From: Dudresnaya verticillata
Lineage: Eukaryota
Assembly (NCBI GenBank): GCA_977862235.1
Contig: OZ374558.1
Coordinates: 2,790,001-2,854,000, forward strand
DNA: 64,000 nucleotides
Direction of reading: 5' to 3'
Part shown: in pieces, positions 3,951 through 59,522 of the stretch
Layout of the letters: the number at the start of each line of letters is the position of its first letter
How positions within the stretch are numbered: the stretch's first letter is position 1
Position numbers and translations under genes: made by a program
The notes under the pieces: model-generated
Told to the model about the DNA's origin: nothing
What the model saw: the letters and a program-made list of their open reading frames with translations, nothing else
Database searches by the model: none

Positions 3951-5392
3951 AGATTAAACCAGTCTTGAATTCAGAAACAGCGTCGACATACTCGTTGAGA
4001 AAATAGCTCTGTTCAAGAAAGAATATATTCACAATCTTCAAATATCCTTGATAGTTCTAAACATATCTCTGTCTAAGTTTTCCAATACCATTCCTATTTA
4101 CAAAAAACGCCCAGTTATGACCTGATATTTGTTACTGAGAATCCAAAAGATATTTCACTTGATTCTTGAAGAATGTTTTCCTGCAAGATTGATGTAGGAT
4201 ATTGATGTCAGGCATGGTTTTCGCCGCGAGGATGGATATTCAGAAATTTCAATCAGTGCGTTTGGACTTTCAAATGGTCAACTACGATCATCAATATAAT
4301 GGAGCTTCGCAGAACGCTTTTAAGACGCAGCATATCTTACAGTTCAAAACAGTATCCCTCATTTATAAGCACGAAGACCTTTGAGGAACGTTTTTCGAAA
4401 AGGAAGTCTAACTGTTCATGGTATAATATAGGAGCCGAGAAGAATTAGAGTGATTCTATAAAATTTCTTTGTTCTGGATTGCGTTGCGCAAACTTTCGCA
4501 AATATTGAGGCTATTAAGCTTGTCTTGGAATATATAGTTTCGTTAGGTTTGAATAGTCGGAGGATCTTGAGCGTCTCTGCTCCTTAGAAGACGTACTTAG
4601 AACTTTCTTCAGGGTTCATGGTACGAATATTTGAAAAATATAGAGAAATGCTTAAACAGCTGGCACCGTTGCGCGGACCTAATTCTCCTCTTTTGAGTGA
4701 TTATATACAAATCGGGGTATGTTTCTGATTCCGATACGGAAAAGAAAATTCCAAGACAGCAAAGAAGAGTGTTGTATTAGAGATATGGGTGAAATGTACG
4801 GAACCATTAGGTTATGCGCGGCTCATGAAATATACATCAAGACAGATCCAAATAGTATAAAGTGCCTCCCGGATTATTATTAATCACATTGTGTGTGTTC
4901 GATAATCTTCGTGCTCGTGCGGGCGAGTGTGAGCTATTGATTGGGCCTTCAGAGCAGGTTTCTCAACTGGCTAAGACAATTGATCGATCTCATTTCTGCT
5001 AGAAGTGGAAATTGACAATTTACTGCTGGGGTCGAGGTCTGATGTCTTTAACAGAACAGACATTTCTAATGTCGGTGTGCACTCAAGCGCGAACAAGTAT
5101 GTATAAATGATTTTGTTAGCTTCCAAAGCAGAAAAATCTAACCGTAATGGTTCTGCAGTTTTTACTTAAGCGTCATTAGTGCGCAAAGTATGCAATAAGG
5201 TTCAATACACAACTGTATGTAAATCTCATTTTGAGAATCATAATATCTGAAGCGGCAATAAACCGCACCCGAAAAATAAGATATAATGTTCAAAAGTTAA
5301 CGTGATGAAATTAATTCTATTAATATTTTCAGAAAGCAGCCCATTGATTTCACCATTTTCCAGCCTGAGGAACTTGCTATTGCAACCAAGCC

Positions 5393-6865
5393 CTACTGAG
5401 ACTTAGATCCTTCAACGTCTATAAGAGAAGATTCCTCGTCTACAACGTGAACAGCGGAGACTTCATCATCTTTCAGGTACTTTCCTTCTTGGTCAACGTT
5501 GAGTGCGAAAAGAATGAGGCAGAAGGACACGTATCCGAAGAAGAAAAATGTCACAACGAAGGAGAACGACAGAACGGCAATGGATGGCCACATTGTTTCC
5601 TCACGTCCACGGCTGTTAAATTTACCGTTGAAAATAAGGCCGAAGAAATAGAAAGTAGGTAAAGTACATTCTTCCCCACCTTGGCACTCTAGCTCCACCC
5701 AATGGAGGATTAGCATGAATAGGGTCAAGGCACCGAAGGCAATACCAAGCGTAAAGGAGATCGTGCGCCGGGATGCTTGTAAGCCGGAGAATCTCTTGAA
5801 CACAAATTCGAATATAACAGCTGTTGACAGAATTGCGAGAATAAAGCCAATAGTCATTGTGACGGTTCCAATCCAAGTAATGTTAATCATGGTGTATACG
5901 AAGCCGACGAAGGTAACTAAAAGACTTCCGAGCACCATCATTTCAGTGCTTTGCTTCACGGAGTTTCTAGAAGATCTGATAAATTTCCAGTTGATTACGG
6001 TGAAAACGACGATAATTATAAGCCAATATGCGAAATAGGTAACCCACTCAACAAAAGTAGGCGTGTCCTGATAGCCGAACAGAGCCCGAAGCATCGCAAA
6101 AAACTCATTCTTCTTATCATGGCAGCATGCCTTGGTCGACCACATGACTGCATTGTACCAGTCTCTCTCTTCGGCCGGTTTCCACGGCCCGAAAAGGTCC
6201 ACTTCCTGGAGCTCGTGGAATGCATGACTTACGAGTCCAGCTGCGAACGCCATCAGAATGTAGGAGCTGATCTTAAAGAAGAGAAGTAAATCAAGACTTA
6301 CGAGTCCCCTGAATACGATGTAGCTCACTAAAACACCGACAATAAGGGCTAAAACACCTGGCAAAGGAATTGCCTTCCATCCGCCGACATCATCAGCACC
6401 TGCTGTGCCAATCAGAAAAATGACTGTTTCAATTCCCTCTCTCAGAATTTGAACGAAAACCATGAGAAAGATTGAAGTCTTCATAGACTTCATAGACCTG
6501 CCAGCCTCAAGGATTCCTTCAAGTTCTTCCTCCATTTTGGCGCGCAGGTTTTTGCCCATTACCATGATCCATATGATCATCCAAGTGAGTAACGCTGCTG
6601 CCACCAGGAATGCGACTCCTTCGAATATTTTCTCTGTCTTACCAGTGAAAAGCTGGTCACCGGTGACGAAGAAGACAATTGCAAATGCAAGTCCAACAGC
6701 AAGAGAACCAGCTATACCCGCCGCGGTACCCAACCACACCCATTTTCGGAACTGCGTTGCCCCTGTCTTATTCAAGTAGGCTAAAATAATCCCCACAACC
6801 AGGCAGGCTTCCAGAACTTCTCGAAGGACAATGAAAAAGGCCGGAATTGAAAAGATTGCGACCAT
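5393..6865 (-). CDS. FTR1: High-affinity iron permease, FTR1 family, 490 aa, with C-terminal membrane extension (copy 1)
   Basis: N-terminal FSIPAFFIVLREVLEA; two RExxE iron-binding motifs (REVLE, REGIE); CC-containing loop followed by ALFGY before TM7; intact ATG-TAG ORF without introns. Confidence 0.93.
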   Translation of the reverse strand: MVAIFSIPAFFIVLREVLEACLVVGIILAYLNKTGATQFRKWVWLGTAAGIAGSLAVGLAFAIVFFVTGDQLFTGKTEKIFEGVAFLVAAALLTWMIIWIMVMGKNLRAKMEEELEGILEAGRSMKSMKTSIFLMVFVQILREGIETVIFLIGTAGADDVGGWKAIPLPGVLALIVGVLVSYIVFRGLVSLDLLLFFKISSYILMAFAAGLVSHAFHELQEVDLFGPWKPAEERDWYNAVMWSTKACCHDKKNEFFAMLRALFGYQDTPTFVEWVTYFAYWLIIIVVFTVINWKFIRSSRNSVKQSTEMMVLGSLLVTFVGFVYTMINITWIGTVTMTIGFILAILSTAVIFEFVFKRFSGLQASRRTISFTLGIAFGALTLFMLILHWVELECQGGEECTLPTFYFFGLIFNGKFNSRGREETMWPSIAVLSFSFVVTFFFFGYVSFCLILFALNVDQEGKYLKDDEVSAVHVVDEESSLIDVEGSKSQ

Positions 6866-6909
6866 TTTGAATCACCGAAAAGACCCTCTGAGAAATGCCG
6901 GTCAGACAG

Positions 6910-7601
6910 GGAAGAGATTGCTCGGCTTTTCTGGCGGTCACATCAGTGTGTTCATATAGTAATGCTTCCAGTGATTTTAGCAGAAACCTCTTCACGGTCC
7001 GGAGTTCAGATCTCCTATGAATGAAGTGAAGTTGTACCGGAAGCCAAATAGTTGCAGTTTTCGCACGCTTTTCGTGTGGATTCGTGCGCGTCACAGCCTC
7101 GTTGGAGCAGTTGGGAATTGACAGACTTCGTTTACGCTTAGTGGAAGATACGATAAACTTAGGGTTTGAATCGGGCCCTATATCAACAATAACGGGACAG
7201 TCCAGGGTTTTTTGTTCACGAAATCTACTTAATCTTTGGCTATGTCAAGAAAGTCTAAATACAATGAGTTCGGGAATGGATATTATTAATCTATTCAAGG
7301 TCATCTGCGTCTATTTCGGAAACTGAAAAGTGCATCTCATACCCGGCCTTCGTGTGAATATTTTGCGAATGACGCTGGCTGATAGTAATATGTTTCGGGA
7401 TCGCCCTCATAATCTGGATGCACGCACGAATCCACACGAAAAGGGGCGAAAACTGCAATTATTTGATTTGCAATACAACCACACTGCAACCAGATGAGAT
7501 CTGGACTCCGGATCGTGAAGAGGGTTCTGATAAAAATCGCTCGAAGAATGACTATATGAAGACACTCATGTGACCGCCAGAAAATCTGAGCAATATTTTC
7601 C
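6910..7601. promoter_or_regulatory. FTR1 upstream region with ~180-bp imperfect inverted repeat (6910-7088 vs 7423-7601)
   Basis: Both arms read CGCACGAATCCACACGAAAAG...ACTATATGAA.ACACT.ATGTGACCGCCAGAAAA in opposite directions; the proximal arm ends ~45 bp before the ATG. The repeat is seen; promoter function is inferred from position. Confidence 0.7.
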
Positions 7602-7719
7602 TTTTGAGGATAGAAGACACAGAAAACACGTTAACCGCGGCCAAGTTTACTGGGCTATGCAAACGGGGAGAAACCCCGCGCCTGCACTAACCACCACCAT
7701 GAACATTACTTTGGAGATC

Positions 7720-8340
7720 CTCAGAATTAACTTCATAAAACAGAAGCAAATTGTACCCACCTCTTTAGCTCCTCGGAAAGCTGAGAGTGAGCTGAGAGTA
7801 GCGGTGCAAACCGCTTGCCGATTGCTTGTGTACTTCAGAAGTTATGGCGCCCTGCACACAGCCCGCGGAGCCCCTGAAACTTTCAGAAAGTTTCGGACTT
7901 TTCCGAATTTCTGTAAAACAATTTTAATTAGATTTCGCCCTGGGCACCGCCAAGGGCGCCAGCGCACTCGCCTCACACCAGCACTTGTCCGTTCCCGCCG
8001 CTCCTGCTCGCCCACCTGACTGCCACCTGCCCACCGCTCCTGTTGGTCCGCCTGCTCGCTCGCCTGATTTCTGCTCGTCTGCCTGCCGCTTCTACTAGCC
8101 CGCCTGTTCGCTTGTCTGGTTCCTGCGCCTGCCCGCCGCTCCTGTTTGTCCGCCTGCTTGCTCGCCTGATTTCTGCGCGTCTACCTGCCGCTCCTACTGG
8201 TCCCCCTTTTCGCTTGCCTCATTTCTGCGCACCTGCCCGCCACGCCTGCCCACCGCGCTTGCTGGCCCACCGCTCCTCGCCGCTCCTGCTCGCCAGTCGC
8301 TCCTCGCCGCGCCCAACTGCTTCCAGCTGCTGCGCAGGTT
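7720..8340 (-). repeat. Diverged copy of the dispersed motif (7720-7940) plus adjacent GC-rich degenerate tandem repeats (8000-8330)
   Basis: Minus strand GAAAAGTCCGAAACTTTCTGAAAGTTTC..GCCATAACTTCTGAA..GCGGTTTGCACCGCT; ~100-bp repeat units near 8030 and 8131. Confidence 0.55.
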
Positions 8341-8705
8341 TTCGATTTTCGTGAGAGACGAATCTTCAGTTCAATGAAAAGGGACAGGCCTAGGATGGAC
8401 TATTAGGGACGAAACAAGACAGAGGGGGAACCGTTGGCATTAACGCGTACTGCGAAAGATGGGACGGAATAGATACAATAGAGTGGAGAAGTGTGCGGGT
8501 TTATGCGAAGGCTAAATGTAAACACCCGGCTTCTGTGTTCGTGGAGGACATGTGCACTTGTGGTCATGGAGGATGGAAATTGCATGACATGTATGCGTGG
8601 AGCGAGCATTCCGTTTTGTTTACAGGTACGACGTTGACATGTATTTTAGGAGAAAAATACCGAGTACCCAAGGTATATTCGAAACTACATGCGGCGTGAG
8701 AACTC

Positions 8706-9542
8706 TGTGGTGCCACGCCCGAGCGAGGGCGCAACCCCAAGACCAGAGTCCGAGTGGTCTTCCCACGGGGTGGTAGCAGGCGGAGGCGGTGAGGCCGACG
8801 CCGGTTGGGTGGTAGAGCTAGGGACACGGGGTGTGCCCCGGCTGGTTGAGACGTGGACGGGGTCGACTGTAAACCCCCGGCCCACGTAAGGGGGCTGTAG
8901 CACACGCAGAACAATGAAGGCGATAAAGCCGGTGACTGCTGTTGAAGCCAGGCAGTAGAACGGGGTACGTAAGCCCAAGTCGCGCACGGTGTCGTCACCG
9001 GGTGCGAAGGTGGGGGTATCCTCGAGTTCCCAGGCCTGCTTGGCGCTTTACTGTGAGGGAGGTTCACCCCGTATACTCAGTATCCCCGCGGGAGATGCGC
9101 GCGCGTGTGTGGTGCCGTGCGCTTGACACTTGGCATGCGCGCGCACCGCGAGCTCACTAAAATATCGCGCAAAAATACATAGCGTAGAAATACTACTACT
9201 GCACTGTAAATCAGTGTAATCTAAGGGTGCGCACTGCTGGGGCGCACCCGAGCGAGGATTCCCTCGGATATATTCGGCGCGCGTGTTACGCGTGTACACG
9301 TGGAGACGTGTCGCCCGTGTATGCTGTTGGCGCGTGCTGTACGGGCGCGCGCGCACCGTGCCAAGGGCGCGGTAACCATTGGCCGGATCTCGCACGCGCG
9401 GCATCCGCGCACGGGCCAATCCAAGCTGCCGGTAATCGGCGTATGTTATAGTCGCGGGTGATCCGCGTGTACCGTCGTCCGCTCACCGCGCGAGCGGGTG
9501 TAGCGATATAAAACGGGGCTTACCCCGGGGTCTTGCACCACA
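8706..9542 (-). repeat. 3' LTR
   Basis: Direct repeat of 18623-19459 with about 9 substitutions counted by eye (~99% identity). Confidence 0.97.
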
Positions 9543-9555
9543 TCGCCCCCCTCCT
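9543..9555 (-). other. Polypurine tract
   Basis: Minus strand AGGAGGGGGGCGA directly abuts the 3' LTR. Confidence 0.9.
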
Positions 9556-9772
9556 AAGAGCGAAACCCGCGGTGCCGCCCCTCATCTTGCAGTGTCATCA
9601 CTCTGCCTGCGGAGTCATCTCCGATTGTGTCGTGCAGCAACAACCCCGCCGCCGTCTTGACGACCCTTCTGCTTGCTAACCGCGGCTCTCCGCTTTCCAA
9701 ATTGGACGACTGTGTGTGCGCCCCGCGTGTTCCTTCGCCACGCTCTTTCGCGGTCATCCGCTACCCGCAACT

Positions 9773-11939
9773 ATGAGCCAAACGCCGTCGGCGGCGGCGC
9801 CGGGTGCGACGGACGCGGAGGATTTCTCGGAGATCCAGCCCAACACGTCGACGCCTGCCTCCACGTCCGCCCCGGTTCCGCAACCCGCGTTGGCTGCTGC
9901 GCACGTGACCGCCGACCTACCGGCTGTCCCACGTCTACCACCGATTCCTGCACTGCCGCCGTCGGCTCCATTGTTACAGGAAGTGGGGAATGCCCCGGTA
10001 TCCGGGTCCATCGCACCTGTCGCCGTCGACGTACGCGGCGGCCTCGTCATCGGAGTTTGTCCCCATGCCTGTCGCACCGGCCCCGCCGGCCATCGAGTAC
10101 CCGCGTCCGGCGGAGTTCGTCGGCATGGGGGTGGCGCAGGACCTCGACTTGTTTGCGCGTGCACCGTGGTTTCACCCACGCGACTTTCGAGCGATGGACA
10201 TCATCGGGTGTTACGTTATCGGTGGCTACTTGCCAGGGGGTCTCCCCGTCGATGTACTGCAGTCGGAGGACTGGCGCCTCCACGGGGCGGTCCCCATTCA
10301 CCACCTTAACGACCGGCACCGTCCCCTAGACGTATTATTCCGCGATTGGGTTCGCCTTGTCTACCGGCGTCATACGCGCACCATCGGTCGTGGGATCATC
10401 GCGCCGGACCTCGGCGTTGATTACGCGGTATACCGCACGAATGTTGAAGTGGATTACGTGTGGTATCTGGCTGGTCTAGACCTCCCTCAGGCTTGGCGCG
10501 GGCGTGAGCCGCGGGTTTCTCAGGCGGCGTTACTTTTTGACGTGCAGTTGCGGAATGAGTTTCGCTACCTCCGCAAGCGCGGTAGCGCCTTTTGGGACAA
10601 GATCCGCTTCGAACGCCGTGAACGCTCACGTCTCGGCATATTTGTTCCCTATCCCCGCTTCGAGGCTTCCCTCTTCAGAATGATGTACCGCCGACGGTAC
10701 TACATCGGCATACCGCTCGCCTGGGCAGCAGTCGAAACCTGCGAGGGCTTCCTCGTAGAGTTACCCAACGTGTTCGGGTATTGCATGAGCGAGTTATTAC
10801 GCGACCCGAACACGGGGTTGTGGACGGTGGCCTGCACCGAATTCATCGCGAAGATCGCCATGCATTGGCTTTGGGAGACGTATGATACCCTGCGCTTGTG
10901 GTTCTTACCTCCGACGGTGACGTCCCTTCTAGATGAGGTGGACCTCCGCACCGTGCTCGGTGGACAGAGTAACGACGACGAACTTCGCAGATTACTGCAG
11001 CTTCATGGCACCATTGATTGGGACGACCCCGCGGTGGTGCCGCTGTCAAATAACAAACGCAGTAATCTGCGGCGTAACTTTTCGCCGGGTCGGCGTCACC
11101 CCACCTGCGGGGACTTTGTCTGGTATGACCCCTGGCGACGCCAGCTCGTTGGCGAACACGAAGCGCGGTTTCACCGCGAGCACCCGGTGCCGATGCCGGC
11201 GGATTATCCCACCGGCTACCTATACGACGCGATGGAGCAGGGTGTTGATGAGGAGGGTAGCGGAGATTTTCCCGAAGGTTACAACGTCCATTTGTCGGGT
11301 CACGACGTCTCTGCTCCCCCGACGTCATATACTGACTTGGACGGCCCGCGGTCCCGCGCACAACTCGAGTTGCGCGAGGGTGCGGAGTCGTCAGCCATGG
11401 GCGTGGTCGTTCGGGGTGCTACTGCTTCATCGCCGGAGAGAACTCCGAGGTTGCCTGATTCACCGTTGGTCGATGCGACCGCAGAGGCCGTCACACCGAC
11501 TAACACGGCTGCCACTGGTGGCACACCCGGACCTACCCGGCTCGCTATGGCTGACTTTTTCCAACGGTCCGGGGTTGACCTCGACTTGAATCTCTCGGAG
11601 CGTGAGCTCCGAGAGCGACTTAGCGCTATTCTAGCGGCTGCTGCACATGAAACTGGCGATGGTGGGGCCCGTTCACACGAGTCACCTGCGACGGAGTCGA
11701 CTCCGGTTAATAGGGCGTCTAACCGCCTCGAGGACAGCGCGGCGACGGGCACGGAGTTGGCTCCAGGGGCCGCGAGTGCGACTGCAGCTCATGACCCCAT
11801 GGACGTAGCTCCGGACAACCCGCCGAGTGAGGCGGAGCGTGTCCTAGAGAAGGATGGCGAGGCGACGGACACCAATGCTGAGCCCGGCGGTGAGATCACC
11901 GGTGATCCCATGTTTGCATGGATGAAGCGCACGGATTAG
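9773..11939 (+). CDS. Antisense accessory ORF of the LTR element, unknown protein of ~650-720 aa (probable start ATG 9773 with a frameshift near 9990-10010; open frame 9990-11939)
   Basis: 649-codon open frame with a W/F/Y-rich core and acidic low-complexity tail; the core aligns with the antisense ORF at 54187-56504. Confidence 0.8.
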
Positions 11940-13605
11940 CCGCGTATAGTGGCGTCGGTGCCAGTGCCGATGGGCCCGCTGTGGGGCATATAGTCGTAGT
12001 TGAAGCGGTCGATCCGCGTGGAAATGTTCGTTGTTTGGTCAACGTGAAATAAAAACCAACTTGCTGAGTTGTCCGTCCCGCTCCAGTAGTTAGCATTGCG
12101 GGTGCTGCTTGAAGCGTTACTGGTTCAACTTCCGTGCGCGAGGGTAAATTCGACGTGTTCCAGCGTTAGGCAGAATCCGAGCGGTCTAGCCGCGGTTGAA
12201 TAATTGTTGCTTGTCAACGCCAATCATTCTGTTATCCTGGCGAAGCATGCTCACGTTAGTGGAGCGGAGGCGCTTGACAGTCGTCGAGCGGGACTTCCGC
12301 GCCTCGGTACTTGTTGGTTAACAACGCTGCTAGTCACCCTTCCAGATTTTCCACCCGGCGAGGAGCGCCATAAGGTGTGGCGAGAGTGGACGTCGTGGGG
12401 ATCCACTGTATCATTACCGTGTTGCCACGCCGTTCGGTCATTCGCATTGTCTGAACGGTATGTATCGCATGAAGCGGTTACCCGCGTAAGCAACGCGATG
12501 TCATTAACGTTAGCATCCGTGTCCGTGGTCGTAATTGAAGCGGTCTGCCCGCGTGGAGATTCCCGCTGATAATCAGCGTGAAGACAGCTATCGCTTGTCT
12601 CGCCACTGAACCTTGAGGGGGAACGGCCTTATTGGGTTCATATTGATGCCCGTTCTTGCGGAGGTTCCGCGGCTTGCTATCAGCGGGTGTAGTCCTTCCG
12701 CGTATCGGTACCTGTCCGTGGGCAGAATAAGTTCTTACTACGAACTTCGTATCCACGTTAGGGTCGACGCACTGGCGCATTTTCCGAATTATGCGGTGAT
12801 GGTCGGCTCACGTGGGAAGCCACGGTCGCTGTTAGTGCATCGTTGCCACTCGTTGATGTACAACGTCGTCTCGTCTTCTCGGCCTAGCAGGCGACGGTCG
12901 TCGCATTTGCGTAGTAGCGGTCTTCGTGTGGTGCCACAGTAACAATTGTCTTCATAAGCCATGGTAAATTATCCGTCATATGTAAACGTTATTAGAGTCA
13001 AGCCTTCTGGGCGTAGAGTCTCACTCGCCCCGTAGGTGATCCTGGTCTCACCTAGGGCGCTATTATGGCACCGCATTAGTGGTGTTCGAAGCGGTCCGAC
13101 CGCGTTAAGGTCCGTTGTTGGGCAACGTATGGGAATCACCTCCCCCGACACCGAGTCCCGTTTAGCGCTCGTCAGTGTATTTGCGTCGTTGGGAATGCCT
13201 CGCCTGAAGTTCACACGGGGCGGGGCAACAACAGTCGACTGATTATGCGAGAGCGGTCTACCCGCGTGAGCATGTTCTTTGGCAGACAACCTGAGTCAGA
13301 TCAGACGCGTTAGCTTAAAACTTCGCCTCTTTCCATAGCTGGCGTTGGTTCCCGCCACCATAGGTCCTTCGCGTGATGATATTGGTCGTAACGGTCCATC
13401 CGCATAATGATACTCGTTGATCCTCAACGTTGTTTCGTCCTTACTGCCGTAGGGGGCGTCGGCCGGCCTGTAATATCGCGAGTTCGTGACGCGCGGTGGT
13501 AACGGCCGACGTGGTGGGCCATGGTTTGCCATTCGATGTGATCCAACGCGTTATAGCTACTTTCGTCACTTGGGTTACCGCTGTGGCCACTCCTGTTGAG
13601 GCACC

Positions 13606-15959
13606 TCAACCCACCATAGCGCGGTGTAGGTCGTTGGGCGTTCCCAGCCGAGCCCTACGGCAATAGCGCAGGACCTGACTGCGAGGTAGGTTTTCGATAG
13701 GCTCGAGTGTGTTCGCGGAACTTGGGTATCCAAACCACTTGACCTCGTAGAGCGTACCCCCGTTAGCGTATTCGTGGTTAACCACTTTCTCGATGACGAA
13801 CATTGTACGCCGAGCTCCCGTAGTGGTGTGTACTGTAGATGGTGCCGTTACTGTAGAGCGAGGGTTGGCCTCAGTATGAGGAGTCGTGGGTATGACCACT
13901 GGATTTTGATCGAATGTCACGCGCCGTGCTGTGGTGGTGCCTCTCGTGGTCTGGTCTTTCTTGAGTAGCTTATTGAGTGGAGCAGCTACGTGTGCGTAAT
14001 CGGGGACAAATCGTCGGTAAACATTACATAGACCCAGAAAGGAGCGCAGCTCCGTCTGAGTTCGAGGGTGTTGTGCCTCGCGTAATGCGGCGACCGCGGT
14101 CTGGTCGATACCAAATTGTCCGGGCTTTATGACGGGCCCGAGGTAGGTGACTGTGTATGTGAAGAAGTCACATTTCTTGAGCTTCAGGGTTACCCCTGCT
14201 CGCTGCAGCATAGCGAGGATTTCCTCCACGTGTTGGTAATGAGAATCGAGATCGCGCGAGTAGATGATCACATCGTCTAGATAAACGAGGCAAGTCCTCC
14301 ATTTGACTCCCGACAGGAGTATATCCAATGTGCGCTGAAATGTAGCCGGCGCGTTCGTAAGTCCGAAGGGCATACGACGGTAGCGGAACAGACCCGCGTG
14401 GCAGGTAAACGTGGTTTTGTCACGATCGCGGGGTGCAACGGGGATTTGCCAATACCCCGAGTTGCAGTCCAACGTCGTGAATACCGACGCATCACCTAGC
14501 GAGTCGATGCACTCGTCCATTCGCGGGAGCGGGTAGGTGTCGCGCACCGTGAGGGCATTCAATCGTCGGTAGTCGACGCAGAATCGTAGCGTGCCGTCCT
14601 TCTTTGGCGCGAACACAACTGGGGATGCCCAAGGCGACTGTGCGGGTTCGATAACCCCGGCGCGGAGCATCCGTTCGACCTCGGTCTGTTCCAACTCTCG
14701 TTGTTTTGGACCAGCGCGGTACGGCGGCGACGAAAACGGGCGTGAGCCCGGGAGTAAATCGATGTAATGTTCGGTGGTGTTGATCTCACCCAATTGGCCG
14801 TCCCATATAGATGAATAGGTCCCGAGGAGTTCCCTCACACGTACTTGATGCGCCAGCGGAAGATGGGACAGGTCAAGGTCCTCGACCGTTGGTGGTCTCT
14901 CGGGAGCCTCCCCGTCCCGTGCTTTCGCTTGCGGGGTTGTGTCCAACTTCCCATTTCCGGCGGCTTCCGTCAACCCCAGCACATCCGCAAGCTGTAGATG
15001 ACTTGGGATGATCGCTGTGGGGTGAGGGAGCGCCATCGCCACAACCTGGCCCTTTACTAGCGTTTGCGGCTGACGCGAGAAGTTCGCGAGTAGAATCCGA
15101 AACGGACGCGAGGGCTCAACCTCGGCGATACCATTCGTGGCGAGTACACCCTGTCGTTCATACGGCGTATTGTTGGGCTGGAGGCAAACGACTCCAGCCC
15201 GTTCCGTGGTAACCGTGACCCACGTTTGCGATTGTGCAGGAAGAGTGGTCTTCAAAGCCACGCGTACCTTCTGAGAGGCACGCCCCTTCGCCTTGCCGAA
15301 CTCATGCTCTGCCGGTAACGGCGCGTAGTCCGGGGGACGTTTCATCGGTCGTCGAGTTATCGGTACCCGCGTACCGTCGTCGAGTTCGACTTCCTTTGTG
15401 CGGGGGTAGATAGCTTCGACGAATCTGTCGCATAAATCGCAACCCAGGATGACTGGAGCGGCTAACCGCTCGCACACAATGAAGTCGAGTTTGACGACAC
15501 GAGGACCAAGGGGGATAATGAGCCCGATGGTACCCAGCGTCGCTATCGGCTTGTTGTTCGCGTCCGCGATCGTGAGTAATGCCATGGACTTGATTTCGGA
15601 ACTCATCTCCGGTGGTAGCTCCGACTTTCGGATGAAGTTGGGCCTGCACCTGTGTCGAGGACACTTAGCTTACGAGCGAGTAAGCTCATTCTTGCGCCGA
15701 TTTCGGCATAGACCTTGAAGTTGCGTTTTGCGAGGACACAAACTTGGTCGGTTTCTCGACGCTGCCGTACCCTGTTCCAAGGGCGGCGCAAGGGGGCAGG
15801 TCTTCGCGGTTTTTCCGCGTCAGAGATGTCCGTTGGTGGATCGGACATCGGCGGGGATATCCCCGGTAGGTGGCTGGGTTCCTCGCCCCGAGTCCCGTCG
15901 GTCGACGATGAATCGAGGGACTCTCCAACCGAGGGGCCAGGAACCCCACTTAGTTTCCC
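13606..15959 (-). pseudogene. pol: pol: aspartic protease (VLDTGAGP, 1-bp frameshift near 15640) and RT (YLDD), joined in frame to a chromodomain; RNase H and integrase core absent
   Basis: LRFCVDYRRLN, CLVYLDDVII, LRSFLGLCNVYRRFV, then after LNKLLKK directly FVIEKVVNH..YEVKWFGYPSSANTLEPIENL. Confidence 0.93.
15930..15959 (-). promoter_or_regulatory. Predicted -1 ribosomal frameshift signal at the gag/pol junction
   Basis: Minus strand G GGA AAC (X XXY YYZ) just before the gag TAA, 5-nt spacer, then GGGGTT-CCT-GGCCCC hairpin; the -1 frame runs open into the protease DTG motif. Confidence 0.8.
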
Positions 15960-18501
15960 TGGGCGCGGTTAACCGCGGTGTCCCCGCGGCGTAGGACCTG
16001 CGGGTGCCTCTCTGCCACTTGAGGACGCGGATCGGCCCCAGCTTGACGGAGTCGAAGCGCGACGGCCTCCACGGCCTGAGCGTACGAATCGCGGCGAACT
16101 CGCGCTTGGTCTTCCGGCGATAACGCCTCGAAGTTGCGGACCACCGACGCCGGATCGCTAAAGGGATGGACACACTCGGTTGAGAGGTGGTTCCTCGCGT
16201 AGCACCTGAAGCAGATAATCTGCGGGCGAGGTCCACTTCTATCCCTTGCGCGGATCGTCCCGCGGTCTTGCCAGCCCGGTCGCGCTTGTGCGACGTGGCG
16301 TGCGTGTTCCTGATACGGAATACGCGGGGCCGGGATGTTACGCGGTGGTCCGCCCCGTTGATAAAAAGCCAGCGCGGGGTCGGCATCCTCGGAGATCGTA
16401 TCCGTTGGTAAATCCGTTGTCGGTACCGACGCGTCCGACTGAACCAGATGAAATTCACCGTCGGCTTCTCCGTGGTCTTGGCGAGCACCGATGCTCCTGT
16501 CACGGAATTCCACGGATGACTCGGCGAGTAATGCCGTTGCGCGGGGGCGAGCCCGGTTGTTTTCTGGACGGTTCGGCACCGTCAGCGGTGGGGCTCTATT
16601 CCTGGGGAGGCCCAGCCTTGCTCGGTGTGCGTCACCTTCGTCTTGTGCGTAATGCACAAGATGTTCGAAGGACAGCTCGTCACGAGGCGTTTCCTCTCTA
16701 TAACGTGCTACCAATGAGCGGATAGCTGGGTCTAGCCCATCGATAAAGATGGTCATCTTCTCCCACATCGGGTATGCATTCCCGCAACGACTACACGCCT
16801 TACTAAGTCTCTCGCCGTAATCGGCTTCCTTCTCCCCCTGTCGTTGGCGTGTTGAACGAAGCGCGAGCGTAGCTTCGCGAATGACGTTTGGTGTCGCGTA
16901 GGTCCGGAGCAGGTAGTTGACTGCCTCGGGCCAAGCAGAGATACCTCCGGATGCATTAGACGGCGAAGACTTGGCCGAGCGGAAAAGCGAGGCGGCATTC
17001 CCGCGTAGGAAGTATCCCACAGCGAGGAGTGCCTGGGCTTCCGACATCTCGAGGGTGTCCGCCTCGTCTACGAAGCGAGCCAAAAACTCGAGAATCATGA
17101 CGGGTCTTCCCCGGTAAAGGTATTATCCCTCATCGTCAATTCGAGACGGCGTATCTGGTCACGGATCTTCCCCGTTTCGCGTCCCGTCCTCTTTTGCGAC
17201 CTGTTCTGAAGCCGATAACGGCGGTATGACAGGAGCTTGTCGAAACGTGGGTCGGTCGGCTTGTGCTCCTTGAGGGACCGATATTTCGGGCCCAGCTTAG
17301 AGCGGCGGTTCCGCCGGGGTGCAATATCCCCGTCACGACTCGAGTCCGACTCGGACGAACTGCCCGACGAGTCCGACGATGAGGATGAAGAGGACGAAGA
17401 GGGGTCGCTATCCTCGGGGTCCCCACGGCGACGGCGCCGGTCTTCTTTCTTCTTGCGTTTGCGGTCGCGCTTGCGGCGCTCACGCCGTTCACGGCGCGAG
17501 CTGCGAGGCTCCTTTTTCGGGGTTTTCCACTTGCGAAACCCCACGATGTCGACTTCGGGAGTCTCGTTATCATCGGGGTAATCCCCACCGTGGTGGTGAC
17601 CTCGGTGGTTATCCCCGTCACAGCAACGGCCTACCGCACACTTATAGGCCTGGTCTTCCAGTCGTGAAAGGCGAGCAGCAACCCGAGCGAATCTTTCTTC
17701 TTCGGGCACGGCTCCGCCCTGGCGTGGTTCACCGCGGGATTCGAGTAGCGCGTTCACATCCGCGCGTAGGGTACAGAGGTCACCCGCGAGGGTGGCCTCT
17801 GCAGTACCGGCACGGCCTTCCGTGACGCCTCGGTACAGGGCGTTGATCTTGACGACCAACTCGTCGTAACCGACTTCTAGAAGGGTTACGCGGTCAGCTG
17901 CATCGCGGATGGCGGCGTCGAGTGACGCCTGTAAACCCGTGATTTGCCGCGAAAGTCGCGACGCGAGGTTTTGGTCCTCGTTAATGCACACGGCGCGGAT
18001 GGCCGGTCGTGGCAGAGTGGCCCCTGACTGCACAAAAGCGCCAGTCGGGGCCGGAATTGGAACGGTGGTGGACACCGGTGTTGGGGGTACTGGGTCCGAA
18101 GCTACCTCTTCGTACGAGGGCTCGCCCGACGGAGCGTTCTCCGGAACGACTTGTGTCGGAATCGAGGTAATATCCTCGGGAGGCACTGCTGATGGCCCAG
18201 CGCCACCCGGAGCGCCGGTGTTAGCGGCCGGGTAGGAAGCGCTACGCGCCGAAACCTGCGGAGGTAGAGTCTCGGTGGTCATCCCCGTTGGTGGCGATGG
18301 GAACGGCGGCGGCGGTTGTGCCGCGGACGCGTCCGAACGACGTGTAGCCGTCGAGTGGCCACCAAAGGCGACGCCAATTTCGGGACTAACCCGGCGTTCC
18401 TCCAGCGCGCGAGAGCGCGTAACAGGGACCGTTATGGTCCCTGGAGTAGACGAGGTCTTCCTCGATTTCGGCGGTCCCATTAGGGGAGAGTGGAATTCCA
18501 C
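15950..18501 (-). pseudogene. gag: gag, split into two ORFs (17095-18501 and 15950-17098) by a frameshift
   Basis: FTGEDP/MILEFLARFVDEAD capsid-like region, Q..GE....Y..RL motif, C-terminal knuckle CFRCYARNHLSTEC; long Pro-rich N-terminus with basic and poly-Ser tracts. Confidence 0.88.
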
Positions 18502-18603
18502 GGGCGGTAGATAGTTGACCCTTGTGGTAATTCCGGAGGGTTCTCCGTGGGATCTTGATAGGATGAAAACGAGGTAAGCCTCTCGATTGGGCGAAGTAGT
18601 CTT

Positions 18604-18620
18604 CTAGGTCGGGAGACCAC
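18604..18620 (-). other. Primer-binding site, probably tRNA-Tyr-type
   Basis: Minus strand TGGTCTCCCGACCTAG begins 3 nt after the 5' LTR; complementary to a tRNA ending CGGGAGACCA, as in yeast tRNA-Tyr (tRNA identity inferred). Confidence 0.7.
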
Positions 18621-18622
18621 TT

Positions 18623-19459
18623 TGTGGTGCCACGCCCGAGCGAGGGCGCAACCCCAAGACCAGAGTCCGAGTGGTCCTCCCACGGGGTGGTAGCAGGCGG
18701 AGGCGGTGAGGCCGACGCCGGTTGGGTGGTAGAGCTAGGGACACGGGGTGTGCCCCGGCTGGTTGAGACGTGGACGGGGTCGACTGTAAACCCCCGGCCC
18801 ACGTAAGGGGGCTGTAGCACACGCAGAACAATGAAGGCGATAAAGCCGGTGACTGCTGTTGAAGCCAGGCAGTAGAACGGGGTACGTAAGCCCAAGTCGC
18901 GCACGGTGTCGTCACCGGGTGCGAAGGTGGGGGTATCCTCGAGTTCCTAGGCCTGCTTGGCGCTTTACTGTGAGGGAGGTTCACCCCGTATACTAAGTAT
19001 CCCCGCGGGAGATGCGCGCACGTGTGTGGCGCCGTGCGCTTGACACTTGGCATGCGCGCGCACCGCGAGCTCACTAAAATATCGCGCAAAAATACCTAGC
19101 GTAGAAATACTGCTACTGCACTGTAAATCAGTGTAATCTAAGGGTGCGCACTGCTGGGGCGCACCCGAGCGAGGATTCCCTCGGATATATTCGGCGCGCG
19201 TGTTACGCGTGTACACGTGGAGACGTGTCGCCCGTGTATGCTGTTGGCGCGTGCTGTACGGGCGCGCGCGCACCGTGCCAAGGGCGCGTTAACCATTGGC
19301 CGGATCTCGCACGCGCGGCATCCGCGCACGGGCCCATCCAAGCTGCCGGTAATCGGCGTATGTTATAGTCGCGGGTGATCCGCGTGTACCGTCGTCCGCT
19401 CACCGCGCGAGCGGGTGTAGCGATATAAAACGGGGCTTACCCCGGGGTCTTGCACCACA
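18623..19459 (-). repeat. 5' LTR
   Basis: Direct repeat of 8706-9542, bounded by the PBS and the TSD AACTC. Confidence 0.97.
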
Positions 19460-23133: not shown

Positions 23134-24015
23134 ACACCACCGCCCGGAACTTGTGGGGTGTAGGTTTCGCATACTTTAAAAGATCGATCGCGAAACGTCA
23201 CTGAGAGAGTTATGGCCACCCATTCAAAAGGCCACGCGGCGGCGTTATCTCATAGAATCAAATGAATCGACACCAAGGCGGTCACTCTTAATTTTTCTAT
23301 TTATTATACGCTGTTGATATACAGTACTACTGTATTGTCGCACTAATTAAGTCAAAGAAGAACCACATGGAGATACAAGACAAGTCAAAAGATATTTTTA
23401 GTAGAAACTCTTCAGATCACCCATGAGGTTCTTCTACAAAGTGTGTCTATTGGTAACGAGGACGCGTCTTGTCCGACCGCTCGACGTCGACGGAGCGTGA
23501 AGACGCAAGGCAGTAGAGCTAAAGGGGAGAAGCGCGATGAGCCACCAATTGGTTAGCCACTTTAGGAGTAAATTCACGAAGAGCCGCCCGACAGGACACA
23601 TCCGAAAGAGTCACCACATTGGTAACGGGCAAGTGCCGGTGTGAGGCGAGTGCGCTGGCGCCCTTGGCGGTGCCCAGGGCGAAATCTAATTAAAATTGTT
23701 TTACAGAAATTCGGAAAAGTCCGAAACTTTCTGAAAGTTTCAGGGGCTCCGCGGGCTGTGTGCAGGGCGCCATAACTTCTGAAGTACACAAGCAATCGGC
23801 AAGCGGTTTGCACCGCTACTCTCAGCTCACTCTCAGCTTTCCGAGGAGCTAAAGAGGTGGGTACAATTTGCTTCTGTTTTATGAAGTTAATTCTGAGGAT
23901 CTCCAAAGTAGTGTTCATGGTGGTGGTTAGTGCAGGCGCGGGGTTTCTCCCCGTTTGCATAGCCCAGTAAACTTGGCCGCGGTTAACGTGTTTTCTGTGT
24001 CTTCTATCCTCAAAA

Positions 24016-24707: not shown

Positions 24708-24751
24708 CTGTCTGACCGGCATTTCTCAGAGGGTCTTTTCGGTGATTCAAA

Positions 24752-42113: not shown

Positions 42114-42123
42114 TTTCTGCAAT

Positions 42124-43717: not shown

Positions 43718-43749
<32 letters not shown>

Positions 43750-51398: not shown

Positions 51399-51512
51399 TT
51401 CTACTACTTAGAAAATGGAAAATCACAGCCTCTTAAAGGCGTCGATAATTCCCTTCATATCTTAGTGCATCTTGGACGTTCTCTTACAGAATGACGAGAT
51501 GTTTTCTCTTTC

Positions 51513-52882
51513 TTCCTCCTAGTCATGACTGGCAGATTCTCCAAACTCACGAGAGCGATACCGTTTAAGACAGGCACAGCCTATACGGTGGCCAGGGCTT
51601 TCTGCGAGCATTGGGTTTTCATATACGGTCCACCCCGTTAAGTCCTTTCGGGCAATGGCTCGCAATTCGCGTCCAAGTTCTTCCTCGCGGTGTGCGACAT
51701 CCTTCGAATTATGAATATGTTTACGTCAACCTATCATCGGCAGACGAACGGTCAGACAGAACGATTCAATCGTACCCTCCTAGCGGGTTTGCGACACTTC
51801 ATCGCCGAAGATCAGAAAGACTGTGACGAGTTTACCTCTGCGTTGACATACGCGTATAACACTACTGTACATCGTGCTACGGGCCTCGCGACCTTCGATC
51901 TGGTGTTATCTAACCCCCCGACATCCATCTTAATGGAACAAGCAGAGACAGTGGACGTCGACCACGTGCCGGCGACTAACGTTACGAAGCGGCTGTCTCT
52001 ACGCTTAGAGAAGCTGATGGATACGGCCTTACCACGGATGAAGTTAGCGCAACGGCGCTATGAAACGAATTTCAATAATCGGATTCGACCGGCTAACCAG
52101 AAAGTGAGACCTGGGTCTTGGGTTTTCCTAGAGAGGGAAACGAAGGTGAAGGACGCTTCAGGTGTGGCCCGCGAAGGGAATTTGTTCCCTAAGGCTCTCG
52201 TGCCGTATACTGTTCTGGAACGTGGAACGCACGTTGTCGTTCTAGAAATCAAAGGAAATAGAGAGACGATATCTCTGGACCGGGTTACCTTGGCCCCCTC
52301 GCCGCACGAAGACCCAAGCGCGCAGGGTCAAGACCCTTCAGTAGTGGACCTCACGCCACAAGTAAGCAATTCTACCCCAATCGCCACCGGCATGGACCCT
52401 AGCGGCCCCTCGAATGGGGTTCCTAACCTAGATCAGGGCTCGACGGCGCCGAACGGGCGAGTTGAGGGCGCACATGCGGATACCGATCCTCACAATCCCG
52501 ATAGACAGGGAGTTACCGATATTAAGGATAATCCGACTCTCGCGGTGCCGCCTGCTGATGGGACAGACATACCGAGTCCCGATGGGATAGTGGCTGCGGC
52601 CCCTCCCGATCCGGATTGCGATCCTGGAACCTCCGCGCCCAGCACTTCGGAGACCATGCGGAACGACCCCTCTTCCCCGCGGAAGTTTTCTCTTTTTAAG
52701 AAAGCGCCGCCGCGCGAGCGAGTTGACGATCGCATCGTGTCGTATGATGCCGGTCGACGTCTCTACCGCGTTCGGTGGTTTTAACTTCCAGCGTCAGAAG
52801 ACACTTGGGAGCCCAAGGAACATCTTCCTCACAATCTGGTGGCAAGATACCATCGAGCCAAAGGGGTCGCTCTCCCGCAATA
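51513..52882 (+). pseudogene. Gypsy integrase plus C-terminal chromodomain with a few stops
   Basis: FLLVMTGRFSKLTRAIP, HWVFIYGPP, FTSTYHRQTNGQTERFNRTL, LTYAYNTTVHRATG, RVDDRIVSYD..YRVRWF*LPASEDTWEPKEHLP. Confidence 0.92.
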
Positions 52883-54186: not shown

Positions 54187-56504
54187 TTAGTCAGAAAGAA
54201 GGTCGATGAACTCGTTCTCCTCGAGCGGAGGGTTGGGACCAGACGGCGCTCGAGCCATCGTGACACGACGCACTTCGCGCACTACTCTAGCCCCACGCCC
54301 ACGACGAGGGCACCGATCGCGACGAGCGCCGAGTCCATCGTGAGCCCCGCTAACACGGTCCGATTCTTGGCCTTCGATATCCATGGGTGAGCTTTCGTGC
54401 TCACCCTCGCCCCCCATGGGCTGTATCTCATCCTCTTCCTTGAAGAGTAGCTCCGTCTTGACAATGACTTCAGAGGACTCCGGAGCCAACGCCAATGGCT
54501 GGGCAACGTCCCCTACATGCGCGGCGTCAACATCCCTCGCATCAGACGGATTAAGCGGAAGCTGACGATCCGCGCCGCTCCCAGCCGCGGAAGGCGCCGT
54601 GGTGGTCGGAAGCCGAGGGTCAACACCCGATGAGATCTGACCCGGAATCCGCACCTGGCTGCGATCAGCCGGCGAAGCTTCACTAGCCCCCTCTGGGGCC
54701 GCGGTAGGAGTCGCTCCAGAAGACCCCGCTAACGCCGATGCAGAAGCTACGGGCTACTGAGGTTAGCCCGAATTCGGGCTGACGAGCCGGTTGAGTGGGC
54801 ATCTCAAGGTGATCCTGGCGTGGAATCTTGCTGGCATCATCCTCAGTGGCTTCGCGGGCGTCAAGACCTGAATTGGCACCAATCGCCCCTTGGGCTACGG
54901 CGGCTGGGTGCAGGGGATGACCAAGTCCCTTACGGCTCTTCTTGCCAACACCACCTGTGGGGCCTTCAGCTTCTTCAGCTTTAACATCCCCCAAGGGCTG
55001 TAACGCCTGAAGATGCGCCCGAAGGCTGGCTTGCTCAACGGGACCCGAGGTCTCAATCCAATGCGCCTCGTACTCGGCTAAAACTTCCTCGACCCAATCC
55101 GCCAAGCTCGCCACAGTGAGGCTGTGGATATTCCAATGCACTGCCAACCTGATGGCCAAACCGCGACGATTGAACACATCGCGGATTTCCGCATCGGCGC
55201 GATAGTGGTGAGCCACCGGCGGAGCGTACGGACCCTGCGGATGCCCGTCGACGGTGTCGTCAAATGATGGCACTTCATCAGGGTTCGCGGGACCCTCATC
55301 ACGCCACTTGACGCTGACCCAACCGCGGGTATAGCCTGTACGGCGCTCACACTCATCTAGGGATACCTTCTCGCCCTCGACCGGGCACTTCTCCAGCATG
55401 AAGTCCGGTCAGACTGGGACCAACTTGTCCGGATCGAATTCCACCCAGTCGCCCCTGTCGAAGACTGGCGTAATATGCCCCATGTTCTCGGGTAGGAAGC
55501 GATTACGCTTGGTGACGCGGCTCCATCGGACTCGATCCACAAAGGATAGAATGGAGTCCAGATCCGCCGCGTCCTCCGCGTTGGCGGTAAAGGCAGTGGA
55601 GCCGAGGAAGCGAATCCGAGCCCGTAAGGGTGCGCTTATGAAGTATAAAAAGCCCCGACGGGCTTCATACATGAATACTTGGGTCACTAAGACCATCCAC
55701 TCGTGCCTGAAGATGGTCCACAACTTCGACTCATCGTATGAGACGCTCGTCATCTCCAACTCGAGATACACCAGAATGGCAGGAGTGCCCACGGGCATCG
55801 AATAAGACACTTCTAAGCCAACGTGATCATCGGGGATCTGAGGATACTTGATCCGGTAGAACTCGGGACGTATCGACGTCACTTCTTGGCAATGCGCCGG
55901 GACGAAACAGCCAGTTCGATGGCGATGGCGGCGTTCGAACCGCACCGAATCTGACGGCATGGCCGTTGGCGGGCTGTCCAACGCATATTTGAAGTTCGAG
56001 GATTCGTCCCAACGGACTACTCGCGCCATCGTATATGGGTAATTATCCCTCCCTGGGCGGATCAAGGGCCTCGGATGGCAAACGATGCTCAGATCGTACG
56101 AACCCGCGTTGTGGATGATGGTGAGTGTGCTTCTCCCTACGGAAGTTAATGAGCCCCGCCAAGGCGGAAGTGAACGACACCTCGTGTCGAAAACGCGGAT
56201 GAGCGAGATCCCAAGCCAAGGGACTGTCCAACGTCGGAAGCTCTCGATTGAGCCCGGTCAGAAGCGCGAGACGGTGGCGGCCGTGAGCATGCCAGGTGCG
56301 GCGCTGGGCACGACGCACGCCGCGCCGGCGAATCTCACTGCGGTCGGCGCCCGCGTTAGCCTTGAGGTGGGTCAGGTCCGTCCGCGCTAGCCAGTCGCGG
56401 CTCTTCTTGATCGTCATCGGCACTCCTGCCTCGTCCATCTCGAAGCCAAGGACTCCGGCGCTGGAACCGGCACTGCCGAAAACGATCTGCTGGTTGATGC
56501 TCAT
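54187..56504 (-). pseudogene. Antisense accessory ORF of the second Gypsy element, homologous to 9773-11939; disrupted by a frameshift (~56060), a TGA (55409-55411) and further lesions
   Basis: ORFs 56043-56504, 55409-56065 and 54683-55399 (last two in one frame) plus 54187-54654; DSVRFERRHRHRTGCFVP, KLWT, GDWVEFDP. Confidence 0.8.
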
Positions 56505-58464
56505 GATGAGCTCTGAAGACACTGAGCCACGTCGAGGCACCTTGATATCCTGAGCCGCAACGATATCGGCGAAGCTCCTCCACTGTCGAGAAGACAAACC
56601 ACGGACCAAGCGCAGCGGCGCGGATGACGGTGACGTTGCGACGCACTTACACACGAAGGCACCAAGCGCCGAAAGACGGTACGGTTTCTAGGGAAAGAGC
56701 CACGCTAGGCGAAAATGACGGAGTTGGACACCTCGATGTGGTGAGCCGAGACGGGCGAGAGGTTGGGTCGAGACAAGGCCGGCCGGGCACTGGAATATCC
56801 AGCCAGTTGAGGCTTTCGCGCAAAACTCGATAAGCGATACTCGTCGAGACGGGACACCCGACGCCGGAGGGGCGTACGATGATTTGTCGCCACGCGGCCG
56901 TCGCGAGACGGGCGTTTTGGTGGCGGTTACACCTGCCCTCAACGGGCCGTTTGGGACGTCCACTACACGCCCGCCCCAACCGGGCCAATGGAAACAGCCT
57001 TGCTGGCTTCGCGGGTCTCTCAGCTTTAGAGAGCGGCCCGTGTGGTACAATGAGCCGCCAGGGGCTGTAAGCACGTACACGTGTTTGGTGCCTGTAATGC
57101 GCGGGTAATATTGCGCGTGACATGCGCCTGTAAGGCGCCGCCCGTACTGACGCACTGTAAGGCCCAGTGCATTGCTGGACACTCCATATGGCATTGCTGG
57201 GAACAGCACGGCGCCAATGAGATGGCTTGCCGTGATTGGCTGATTTATCATGGCCTTACGCACAGGAGCGCGCCCGAGTCATGAGCACCTGACGTGCGCA
57301 GGGCGGAGTACCACCGCTCACTACCTCATTGTAATTATTAACGCTAACTACAATAGCTTAGAATAGGAATAGCGGCGAAGGCGCTTTCGGCCTTCGCCAT
57401 ATTTATTGCGCCCCTGACTAGCAGGGGTCTGCTGAATAGAACCCCACGGTGGGTTTCGGGTCTGTACCGTTTCTTTGGTCTACACGGGCTCACCGTACTC
57501 CCCCTTCCAGGTGCTTTACAAGCTTTAGCCTCGTACGACTTTGTACTCTACGAGTGTTAGGGTGGCGCCGCCCCTTTTTCCCTTTCTTTCAGGCACGCTA
57601 GCCTTTTTCCCCTTTTCCCTCAAGTCTCTACCACCTCCCCATTGAGCTACCCTCGTTAGGGTGTGTGTGCGCACGGGACAGCTGTCCTTGCCGTTTAGCG
57701 GGCTACTGGCTCGTCGCGCCATACTACTACACAAGAGCGCCTGGAGCTCAGGGTCTCCGCACTTAGCCCTCTGCTGCTTGTCTGGAGATCTCTGCACGAG
57801 GTGAAAGACCTGAACTTTTTCTCGTTACCCCTTCTTTCGCACAATAGAGCGAAACGTGTTCACACCAAGAGAGGATACCAGGACCGAATCAGCCCGCTCT
57901 GTTTCTACAGGAAGAATATGGTCTTGAACGCAGCCGGTAGGCTCAACATAGTTAATACGGGGAAAGTTGCGCCTATGCAATGGCATACCAAGCAACACAT
58001 CGTACCGAAAATCCGCAACCACAAAGTTGGATGAGTATTTGTGATTTTCCGTCCTCAACTCGGCAGCTTGAACAACCTCACTGGCCGCTTCAGTCCTGTC
58101 CTTCTTGGAATTAGACAGCGAGGTAGTTGTTTGTTTGACTCGAAACATGCTACGATTTTCGGAAAGGAAGGACTTTGAAACGACATTAGTATTGCATCCA
58201 TCGTCCTTTAGGATGAAAATCGGGACGGAGTTAAGGAAACGTTTCAAAACAATAAGCTCCGCGACTGGTACAGGCTCCAAAACAGTCTGCTTCTCTTCCA
58301 CTCTTTGTAATTGTCCCTCAGGAGTGTCTTTACTGCTTTTTGAGGGACATACTAGTTTTGCGGCGAGTCATCAACATCCTCCTCGACGTCTTTCACTTCC
58401 AACTCCTCAACAGCCTCAAAGATGTTGGTTGCAGCCCTCCCCTGCCTCTCACCCTGGTGCTTCC

Positions 58465-59274: not shown

Positions 59275-59522
59275 CTTCCACGGATGACAGCCAACTCTAT
59301 GGAAAGTAAAGCAGGCATTATTATGATAGTCCTTGAGACGTTGTCCCTCAAATCTGCGGCCACGGTCTGTGTTCTCTACATTGCCAATTTCCATCGGAGT
59401 AGGCCCTTACGTAGCACGTGATGCCCCATTAACACCACTCGAACAATCAACAACCCACATCTCCCCATCAGTCATTCCGGGAACAGTCAAACACACGTTT
59501 CGGAAGTCGGAAAGATACTTGG

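What the first reader, a model, noticed from the sequence alone, without database searches (positions are those of the whole stretch)
9773..11939. Conserved, unassigned antisense gene shared by two divergent chromodomain Gypsy retrotransposons
Seen: the element at 8706-19459 has a 649-codon frame antisense to gag-pol between chromodomain and PPT, and the element at 51513-57800 has a decayed ORF in the same place and relative orientation (54187-56504). I see no DNA similarity, but the proteins align colinearly over ~200 aa: GGLPVDVLQSEDW/AGVPMTIKKSRDW; EFRY..DKIRFERRERSRLGIFVP/NFKY..DSVRFERRHRHRTGCFVP; GLWTVACTEF..WLWET..LWFL/KLWTIFRHEW..FMYEA..LYFI; TIDW/RVRW; GDFVWYDP/GDWVEFDP. Both end in acidic low-complexity tails. 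Known: extra or antisense 3' ORFs occur in plant Tat/Retand/Ogre/Athila elements, but chromoviruses usually encode only gag-pol. I see no signal peptide or transmembrane anchor, so it is not env-like. Inference: an old, selected accessory protein family, possibly anti-silencing or nucleic-acid-binding.
Basis: partly seen in the sequence, partly recalled or inferred. Interest (0 to 1): 0.88.

Follow-up and report, generated by a model that had tools for sequence, protein, structure and literature searches.

The report
Antisense retrotransposon gene with unmatched fold
Two very different Gypsy-type jumping elements, likely from a red seaweed, each carry backwards behind their own genes a member of a large unnamed protein family whose predicted fold matched no solved structure searched, and which likely acts on chromatin to keep the element active.

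Summary
Element 1 (8706-19459; 837-bp LTRs, AACTC target-site duplication) carries a + strand frame antisense to gag-pol, between chromodomain and PPT. A TATAAA lies inside the 3' LTR and an AATAAA follows the stop. The decayed copy at 54187-56687 is a true relative (score 99, best of 3000 shuffles 60), but its PPT/LTR was not found.

The layout is a known kind (Grande, Retand, fungal Boty brtn); the protein family appears undescribed. Best reading: a chromatin-acting, probably anti-silencing accessory factor (inferred, 0.45). Expression, dN/dS and the DNA context of relatives could not be tested.

The parts
8701..8705 (.). Target-site duplication AACTC (left; right copy 19460-19464)
8706..9542 (-). 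3' LTR of element 1, 837 bp, TGTGG...CCACA
   Evidence: 9 of 837 differ from the 5' LTR
9507..9512 (+). TATAAA inside the LTR, pointing into the antisense gene; candidate antisense promoter (inferred)
   Evidence: only TATAAA on + in 8706-13606
9543..9555 (-). Polypurine tract abutting the 3' LTR
9773..10309 (+). First ATG after the TATA box; Pro/Ala/Ser-rich frame, out of frame with the conserved protein; likely the N-terminal part of a broken or spliced gene
9990..11939 (+). Antisense ORF1, 649 aa from ATG 9990 (frame open from 9909)
10125..11231 (+). Conserved ~370-aa, mostly helical core; no family or fold match found
11535..11636 (+). ~35-aa helix-extended loop-helix module in the disordered tail, weakly SAP/HeH/LEM-like
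12048..12053 (+). AATAAA about 110 nt after the stop; candidate polyadenylation signal (inferred)
   Evidence: only AATAAA on + in 8706-13606
13606..15669 (-). pol frame: RT (about 14137-14607) joined in frame to the chromodomain (about 13678-13800); RNase H and integrase absent
15950..18603 (-). gag in two frames (17095-18603 and 15950-17122; PF03732 in the latter)
18608..18619 (-). Primer-binding site, 3 nt from the 5' LTR; not the tRNA-Met type (tRNA-Tyr-like by recall only)
18623..19459 (-). 5' LTR of element 1
51513..52880 (+). Element 2 fragment: integrase core and chromodomain, with in-frame stops
   Evidence: rve_3, E 0.014, below cut-off; Chromo, E 6.6e-4, below cut-off
54187..56687 (-). 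Decayed antisense relative (ORF2) in several frames with a stop after the core; recognisable core about 55412-56086

Best explanation
This is a third gene of these Gypsy elements, lying antisense behind the chromodomain, likely transcribed from a promoter in the 3' LTR and predicted to encode a folded ~370-residue domain plus, in many relatives, a small SAP/HeH-like module, which together likely act on chromatin at the element's own copies to counter host silencing. SHOWN: the position inside a complete LTR pair (element 1), the homology to the second element, the large conserved family, and the absence of a family or fold match in the libraries searched. INFERRED: transcription (TATAAA 9507, AATAAA 12048); nuclear and chromatin action (SAP/HeH-like module; analogy to Grande GENE23, TRP28, PMD and VANC); anti-silencing, which would suit an element whose chromodomain keeps the three aromatic cage positions and so likely inserts into silent chromatin. 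Both copies here are probably damaged. That it is a real element-borne gene family I put at about 0.9; the chromatin-regulator mechanism at 0.45.
Confidence: 0.45

Rival explanations
1. The protein is an element-encoded life-cycle helper that acts after transcription: it binds the element's RNA or particle, or helps the cDNA complex reach the nucleus or nuclear envelope (Rev- or Vpr-like; LEM-type tether).
For: Core is 11% arginine and rich in conserved aromatic residues; the HeH fold also includes RNA-binding (Rho-N) and nuclear-envelope (Ish1) members; such roles are proposed for antisense ORFs in PMC7264820.
Against: It is on the opposite strand with its own likely promoter, so it would not be made in step with Gag; no similarity to viral proteins in BFVD.
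Confidence: 0.22
2. The core is an enzyme of unrecognised fold, for example one that modifies nucleic acid or chromatin.
For: Near-invariant charged residues in the 150-row alignment: D99 0.91, R104 0.96, E108 0.95, E163 0.93, R164 0.90, R167 0.90, E204 0.92. A captured enzyme domain in orchid Gypsy elements is reported (PMC9289625; search listing only).
Against: No conserved His, Cys or Lys at 70% or more; no enzyme fold among the structural rows.
Confidence: 0.15
3. The gene restrains the element (copy-number control), through the protein or through the antisense transcript feeding small-RNA silencing.
For: Antisense transcripts of LTR elements can give double-stranded RNA (PMC7264820).
Against: Strong protein-level conservation without DNA conservation shows the protein matters; the candidate AATAAA ends the transcript about 1.5 kb before the chromodomain.
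Confidence: 0.1
4. The family is mainly a host multigene family or cargo of another mobile element, picked up separately by these two retrotransposons.
For: No DNA could be fetched for any relative. Element 2 lacks a proven PPT/LTR, and a third Gypsy remnant on the same strand as ORF2 abuts it at about 57731.
Against: ORF1 sits inside a complete LTR pair with a TSD and a TATA box built into the LTR. Two distant subfamilies share one position and orientation. Very many divergent clusters with near-identical multicopy members is a transposon pattern.
Confidence: 0.08

Closest known systems
Antisense additional ORFs between pol and the 3' LTR (aORF-3R / eORF-3'R): maize Grande gene23, rice RIRE2, Silene Retand, PvRetro13 (PMC7264820; PMC11963269; PMC6317226)
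   Same: Same position and orientation; large extra ORF; own antisense promoter in Grande; function unknown, regulatory role proposed.
   Different: Those plant elements are non-chromodomain Tat-lineage elements and often encode TRP28 or PMD domains, which were not detected here. Here the host elements bear a chromodomain, the candidate TATA lies within the LTR, and the only named relatives are red algal.
brtn of Boty-like Gypsy elements of Botrytis and Sclerotinia (Zhao et al. 2011, not read; cited in PMC7264820 and PMC8365987)
   Same: Antisense extra gene between pol and the 3' LTR in a non-plant Gypsy element.
   Different: Homology could not be tested (no brtn sequence at hand). The fungal antisense proteins noted earlier in this scan are small and Cys-rich; this core is ~370 aa with no conserved Cys or His.
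Transposon-borne anti-silencing proteins: VANC (DUF1985) and Plant Mobile Domain proteins (bioRxiv 2024.09.27.615353; PMC4408406)
   Same: Transposon-encoded accessory domain; PMD also occurs as an antisense 3' ORF in Tat elements. This is the functional model adopted here.
   Different: No Pfam match in ORF1 or 60 relatives. A fold comparison with predicted PMD or DUF1985 models was not possible (no library of predicted cellular structures on hand).
SAP / LEM / HeH / Ish1 / Rho-N helix-extension-helix modules
   Same: Two helices joined by an extended loop after a conserved Gly; several such domains appear among the structural rows.
   Different: Scores are below any threshold; ORF1's copy is acidic; only part of the family has it.

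Membership tests
aORF-3R (antisense extra ORF of LTR retrotransposons) | Inside the element, between pol and the 3' LTR/PPT, antisense to gag-pol | tested here: met
   Element 1. Element 2: behind the chromodomain and antisense, but PPT/LTR not found.
aORF-3R (antisense extra ORF of LTR retrotransposons) | At least 250 codons and not a tandem-repeat artefact (criterion in PMC6317226) | tested here: met
   649 aa; no tandem repeat in 9773-11939; shuffle maximum 344 codons.
aORF-3R (antisense extra ORF of LTR retrotransposons) | Present and conserved in most copies of the family (selection, dN/dS) | not testable with these tools
   No genome is held and no DNA of relatives was found. Protein-level conservation only.
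aORF-3R (antisense extra ORF of LTR retrotransposons) | Antisense transcript | not testable with these tools
   No run was listed; only TATAAA and AATAAA motifs.
Ty3/Gypsy LTR retrotransposon (host element 1) | LTR pair, TSD, PBS, PPT, gag, RT, chromodomain at the end of pol | tested here: met
   RNase H and integrase are deleted in this copy.
Chromovirus clade | Chromodomain at the C-terminus of pol | tested here: met
   PF00385 39.1 bits in element 1; F, W and Y at the three cage positions by inspection (cage as defined in PMC3605345); decayed in element 2.
Chromovirus clade | RT branches with chromoviruses | tested here: inconclusive
   No tree was built. By eye against parts 1-4 of 7 of the RT alignment of PMC5348765, the GYWQIP and CLVYLDD stretches look more like non-chromovirus rows; chromodomains were captured independently by Chronos.
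Chromovirus clade | PBS for tRNA-Met (plant chromoviruses, PMC3605345) or self-priming (Tcn1, PMC6317226) | tested here: inconclusive
   The PBS does not look like the Met type, but both the Met sequence and the tRNA-Tyr assignment are recalled; self-priming was not tested.
env-like ORF | Sense orientation and a transmembrane segment | tested here: not met
   Antisense; maximum hydropathy 1.31.
PMD / TRP28 / DUF1985 accessory domains | Pfam profile match | tested here: not met
   No such hit in ORF1 or in 60 of 60 relatives scanned at E<=0.05.
PMD / TRP28 / DUF1985 accessory domains | Shared fold | not testable with these tools
   No library of predicted cellular structures was on hand; the PDB searches cannot exclude it.
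SAP/LEM/HeH module (tail) | Helix-extended loop-helix fold and profile match | tested here: inconclusive

The most novel reading that the evidence does not exclude
A whole lineage of red-algal chromodomain Gypsy elements encodes, from a bidirectional LTR, an ancient anti-silencing factor built on a new protein fold plus a SAP-like tether: a retrotransposon counterpart of VANC, evolved independently of the plant PMD/TRP28 and fungal zinc-cluster antisense genes, that lets the element insert into silent chromatin through its chromodomain and then switch itself back on.
Probability: 0.25. Interest if true: 0.85.

Novelty: new variant of a known kind. Interest (0 to 1): 0.63.

Why it matters
The function of antisense extra ORFs in LTR retrotransposons is an open question (PMC7264820), and most such ORFs are very heterogeneous (PMC6317226). 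This one is the opposite: a single, well-folded, deeply conserved family with over a thousand divergent members and no structural match found, which makes structure determination and binding assays practical. If it counters silencing, it would bear on how LTR elements expanded in seaweed genomes and would show a third, independent origin of an antisense regulator in Gypsy elements. At the least, it suggests that some 'hypothetical' G. chorda genes are transposon genes.

Tried and rejected
DNA context of relatives: no genome is held. Scans of metagenome contigs, viral contigs and prokaryotic genomes confirmed no relative among 599, 128, 25, 44, 22 and 13 pattern matches. Sequencing runs: none was listed, so no reads were laid.

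Family searches: Pfam gave nothing at cut-off for ORF1, the element-2 frames or 60 relatives (five sub-cut-off hits, all different); PHROGs and NCBIfam gave nothing for the core in 8 proteins. PDB sequence search, best E 0.16 (49). ESM Atlas gave no usable feature hit, and its own model was too poor to use. Not all 150 alignment members were scanned against Pfam (60 relatives were).

Splicing at the 5' frame switch: 24 GT-AG candidates, none with a branch-point motif; unresolved. Antisense-shadow artefact rejected: no long minus-strand ORF underlies ORF1, and conservation is in this frame. Env rejected. GW/WG Argonaute-hook enrichment not evident (mean 1.5 per protein). Rfam: no match in the window. 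RT phylogeny not built.

Literature: ten searches found no description of this family. The G. chorda genome paper is not held, and Repbase or subscription papers may annotate such ORFs.

Full report
1. The observation. Element 1 is a Gypsy-type LTR retrotransposon on the minus strand: two 837-bp LTRs at 8706-9542 and 18623-19459 differing at 9 sites, AACTC on both flanks, a PPT abutting the left LTR and a PBS 3 nt inside the right one, with gag, RT and chromodomain hits in Pfam. RT passes in frame into the chromodomain with RNase H and integrase missing, so the copy is defective. On the + strand a frame is open from 9909 to 11939: 676 codons, against at most 344 in 500 shuffles, and 649 aa from ATG 9990. 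Its composition resembles the Pro/Ala/Ser-rich heads of relatives, so the gene is either broken near its 5' end, spliced (24 GT-AG candidates, none with a branch-point motif), or starts at 9990 or 10065. The only TATAAA on the + strand of 8706-13606 lies inside the LTR at 9507, and the only AATAAA at 12048, about 110 nt after the stop. That is the anatomy of an antisense transcription unit, but it rests on motifs only.

2. The second copy. At 51513-52880 lie a decayed integrase core and chromodomain on the + strand; 1.3 kb further on, on the minus strand, is a decayed ORF in several frames. Its core aligns with ORF1 at score 99, against mean 35.5 and maximum 60 in 3000 shuffles. It scores 42 bits (E 1.5e-14) with a profile built without it, and 92 of 178 family proteins hit it. 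The elements share no DNA similarity. No PPT or LTR pair was found for element 2. A third Gypsy remnant on the minus strand is cut at about 57731, which probably marks element 2's right end; it also leaves a small chance that ORF2 belongs to that remnant.

3. The family. A four-sequence profile found 1,208 representatives of 50%-identity clusters at E<=0.001, 525 at 1e-10 and 122 at 1e-30; only the best 150 were returned. The word-indexed searches added a few more. Of 22 relatives looked up, one cluster names an organism: four Gracilariopsis chorda hypothetical proteins, 87-99% identical; one more record is called 'hypothetical protein'. A red-algal origin of the window and a red-algal range of the family are therefore inferences from one named cluster. 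The architecture is a variable low-complexity head (median 63 aa), a ~350-370-aa core at 20-44% identity to ORF1, and a mostly acidic tail (85 of 102). The core conserves Trp, Tyr, Arg, Glu, Pro and Gly but no Cys, His or Lys. ORF1 and ORF2 fall in distant parts of the family. No relative's DNA could be fetched, so the placement is known for these two copies only.

5. The tail holds a ~35-aa motif at 11535-11636, found in 48 of 178 proteins (27 seeds, 9 cluster mates, 12 others; many of the 178 are fragments) and not in element 2 or its nearest relatives. It folds as helix, extended loop, helix. Several SAP and Rho-N domains are among the top 50 structural rows, and single members hit Ish1 and HeH below cut-off, but unrelated proteins score as well or better. 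It is a hint, not an assignment.

6. How it most likely works. Shown: position, orientation, homology, family and fold confidence. Inferred: RNA polymerase II reads outward from the inner end of the 3' LTR and makes a separate mRNA; the protein goes to the nucleus and acts at the element's own chromatin; it counters silencing. The reasoning is the SAP/HeH-like module, the nuclear Grande protein with its own promoter (PMC7264820), the anti-silencing roles of VANC and PMD proteins (bioRxiv 2024.09.27.615353), and a chromodomain with an intact aromatic cage that would place new copies in silent chromatin. Against it stand the lack of an NLS in ORF1, a near-neutral core, the patchy module and no CpG depletion. 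I give it 0.45. Rivals: RNA or particle helper 0.22, enzyme 0.15, self-restraint 0.10, captured cargo 0.08.

7. Comparison with what is known. The layout is that of aORF-3R elements (Grande, RIRE2, Retand, PvRetro13, fungal Boty), so the kind is known; earlier notes of this scan pointed me to brtn, which I confirmed as listed in PMC7264820. The protein is not detectably PMD, TRP28 or env. Whether the host element is a true chromovirus is open. Papers seen: PMC7264820 parts 1-2 of 3 of the text; PMC11963269 abstract and Background; PMC4408406, PMC8365987, PMC6317226 and PMC3605345 passages; PMC5348765 passages and parts 1-4 of 7 of supplement 6; bioRxiv 2024.09.27.615353 abstract and passages; PMC9289625 search listing only; Zhao 2011 and the G. 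chorda genome paper not seen. Ten full-text searches found no description of this family; Repbase, subscription papers and unread supplements may hold one.

8. Verdict. Real; a new variant of a known kind. Interest 0.63: a large, tractable, apparently undescribed accessory family with an unmatched predicted fold, held back by an untested function and by context known for two damaged copies only.

Noticed in passing
window 4472-7996 and 23621-27139: A 3.5-kb inverted duplication (2,547 nt at 100%, 975 nt at 97%) carrying an FTR1 iron-permease ORF (PF03239 at 5393-6871; matching ORF at 24746-26218). Element 1 lies in the 15.6-kb spacer between the arms.
   Followed up: no
window 13606-15669 (-): RT runs in frame into the chromodomain with RNase H and integrase missing. 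The LTRs are 98.9% identical, so this is a young internally deleted copy that kept the antisense gene region.
   Followed up: partly
window about 57731-60420 (-): A third Gypsy remnant (gag-like stretch near 60120-60420, protease RVP_2 E 0.0058 at 57828-58367) is cut just after the protease at a sequence ending in ACTACA, which looks like a nested insertion boundary of element 2.
   Followed up: partly
window 18608-18622 (-): PBS 3 nt from the LTR that is not of the usual Met type (tRNA-Tyr-like by recall).
   Followed up: no
window 48701-51400: Broken frames that look like a Helitron/Pif1 helicase by recall (no Pfam hit for 48701-49549), directly left of the truncated element 2.
   Followed up: no
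window 42123-44143 and 46072-46591: Three ~0.65-kb repeats with CAG tracts, and a 21-bp tandem array.
   Followed up: no
window 62077-62691 (+) and 63117-64000 (+): An ORF with two C2H2 zinc fingers (zf-met, E 1e-10) followed by a DUF1759-like frame (E 3e-4, below cut-off); possibly the start of another retroelement.
   Followed up: no
window 40596-42113 (+) and 31344-32387 (+): A Methyltransf_24 ORF and a DUF7869 fragment.
   Followed up: no
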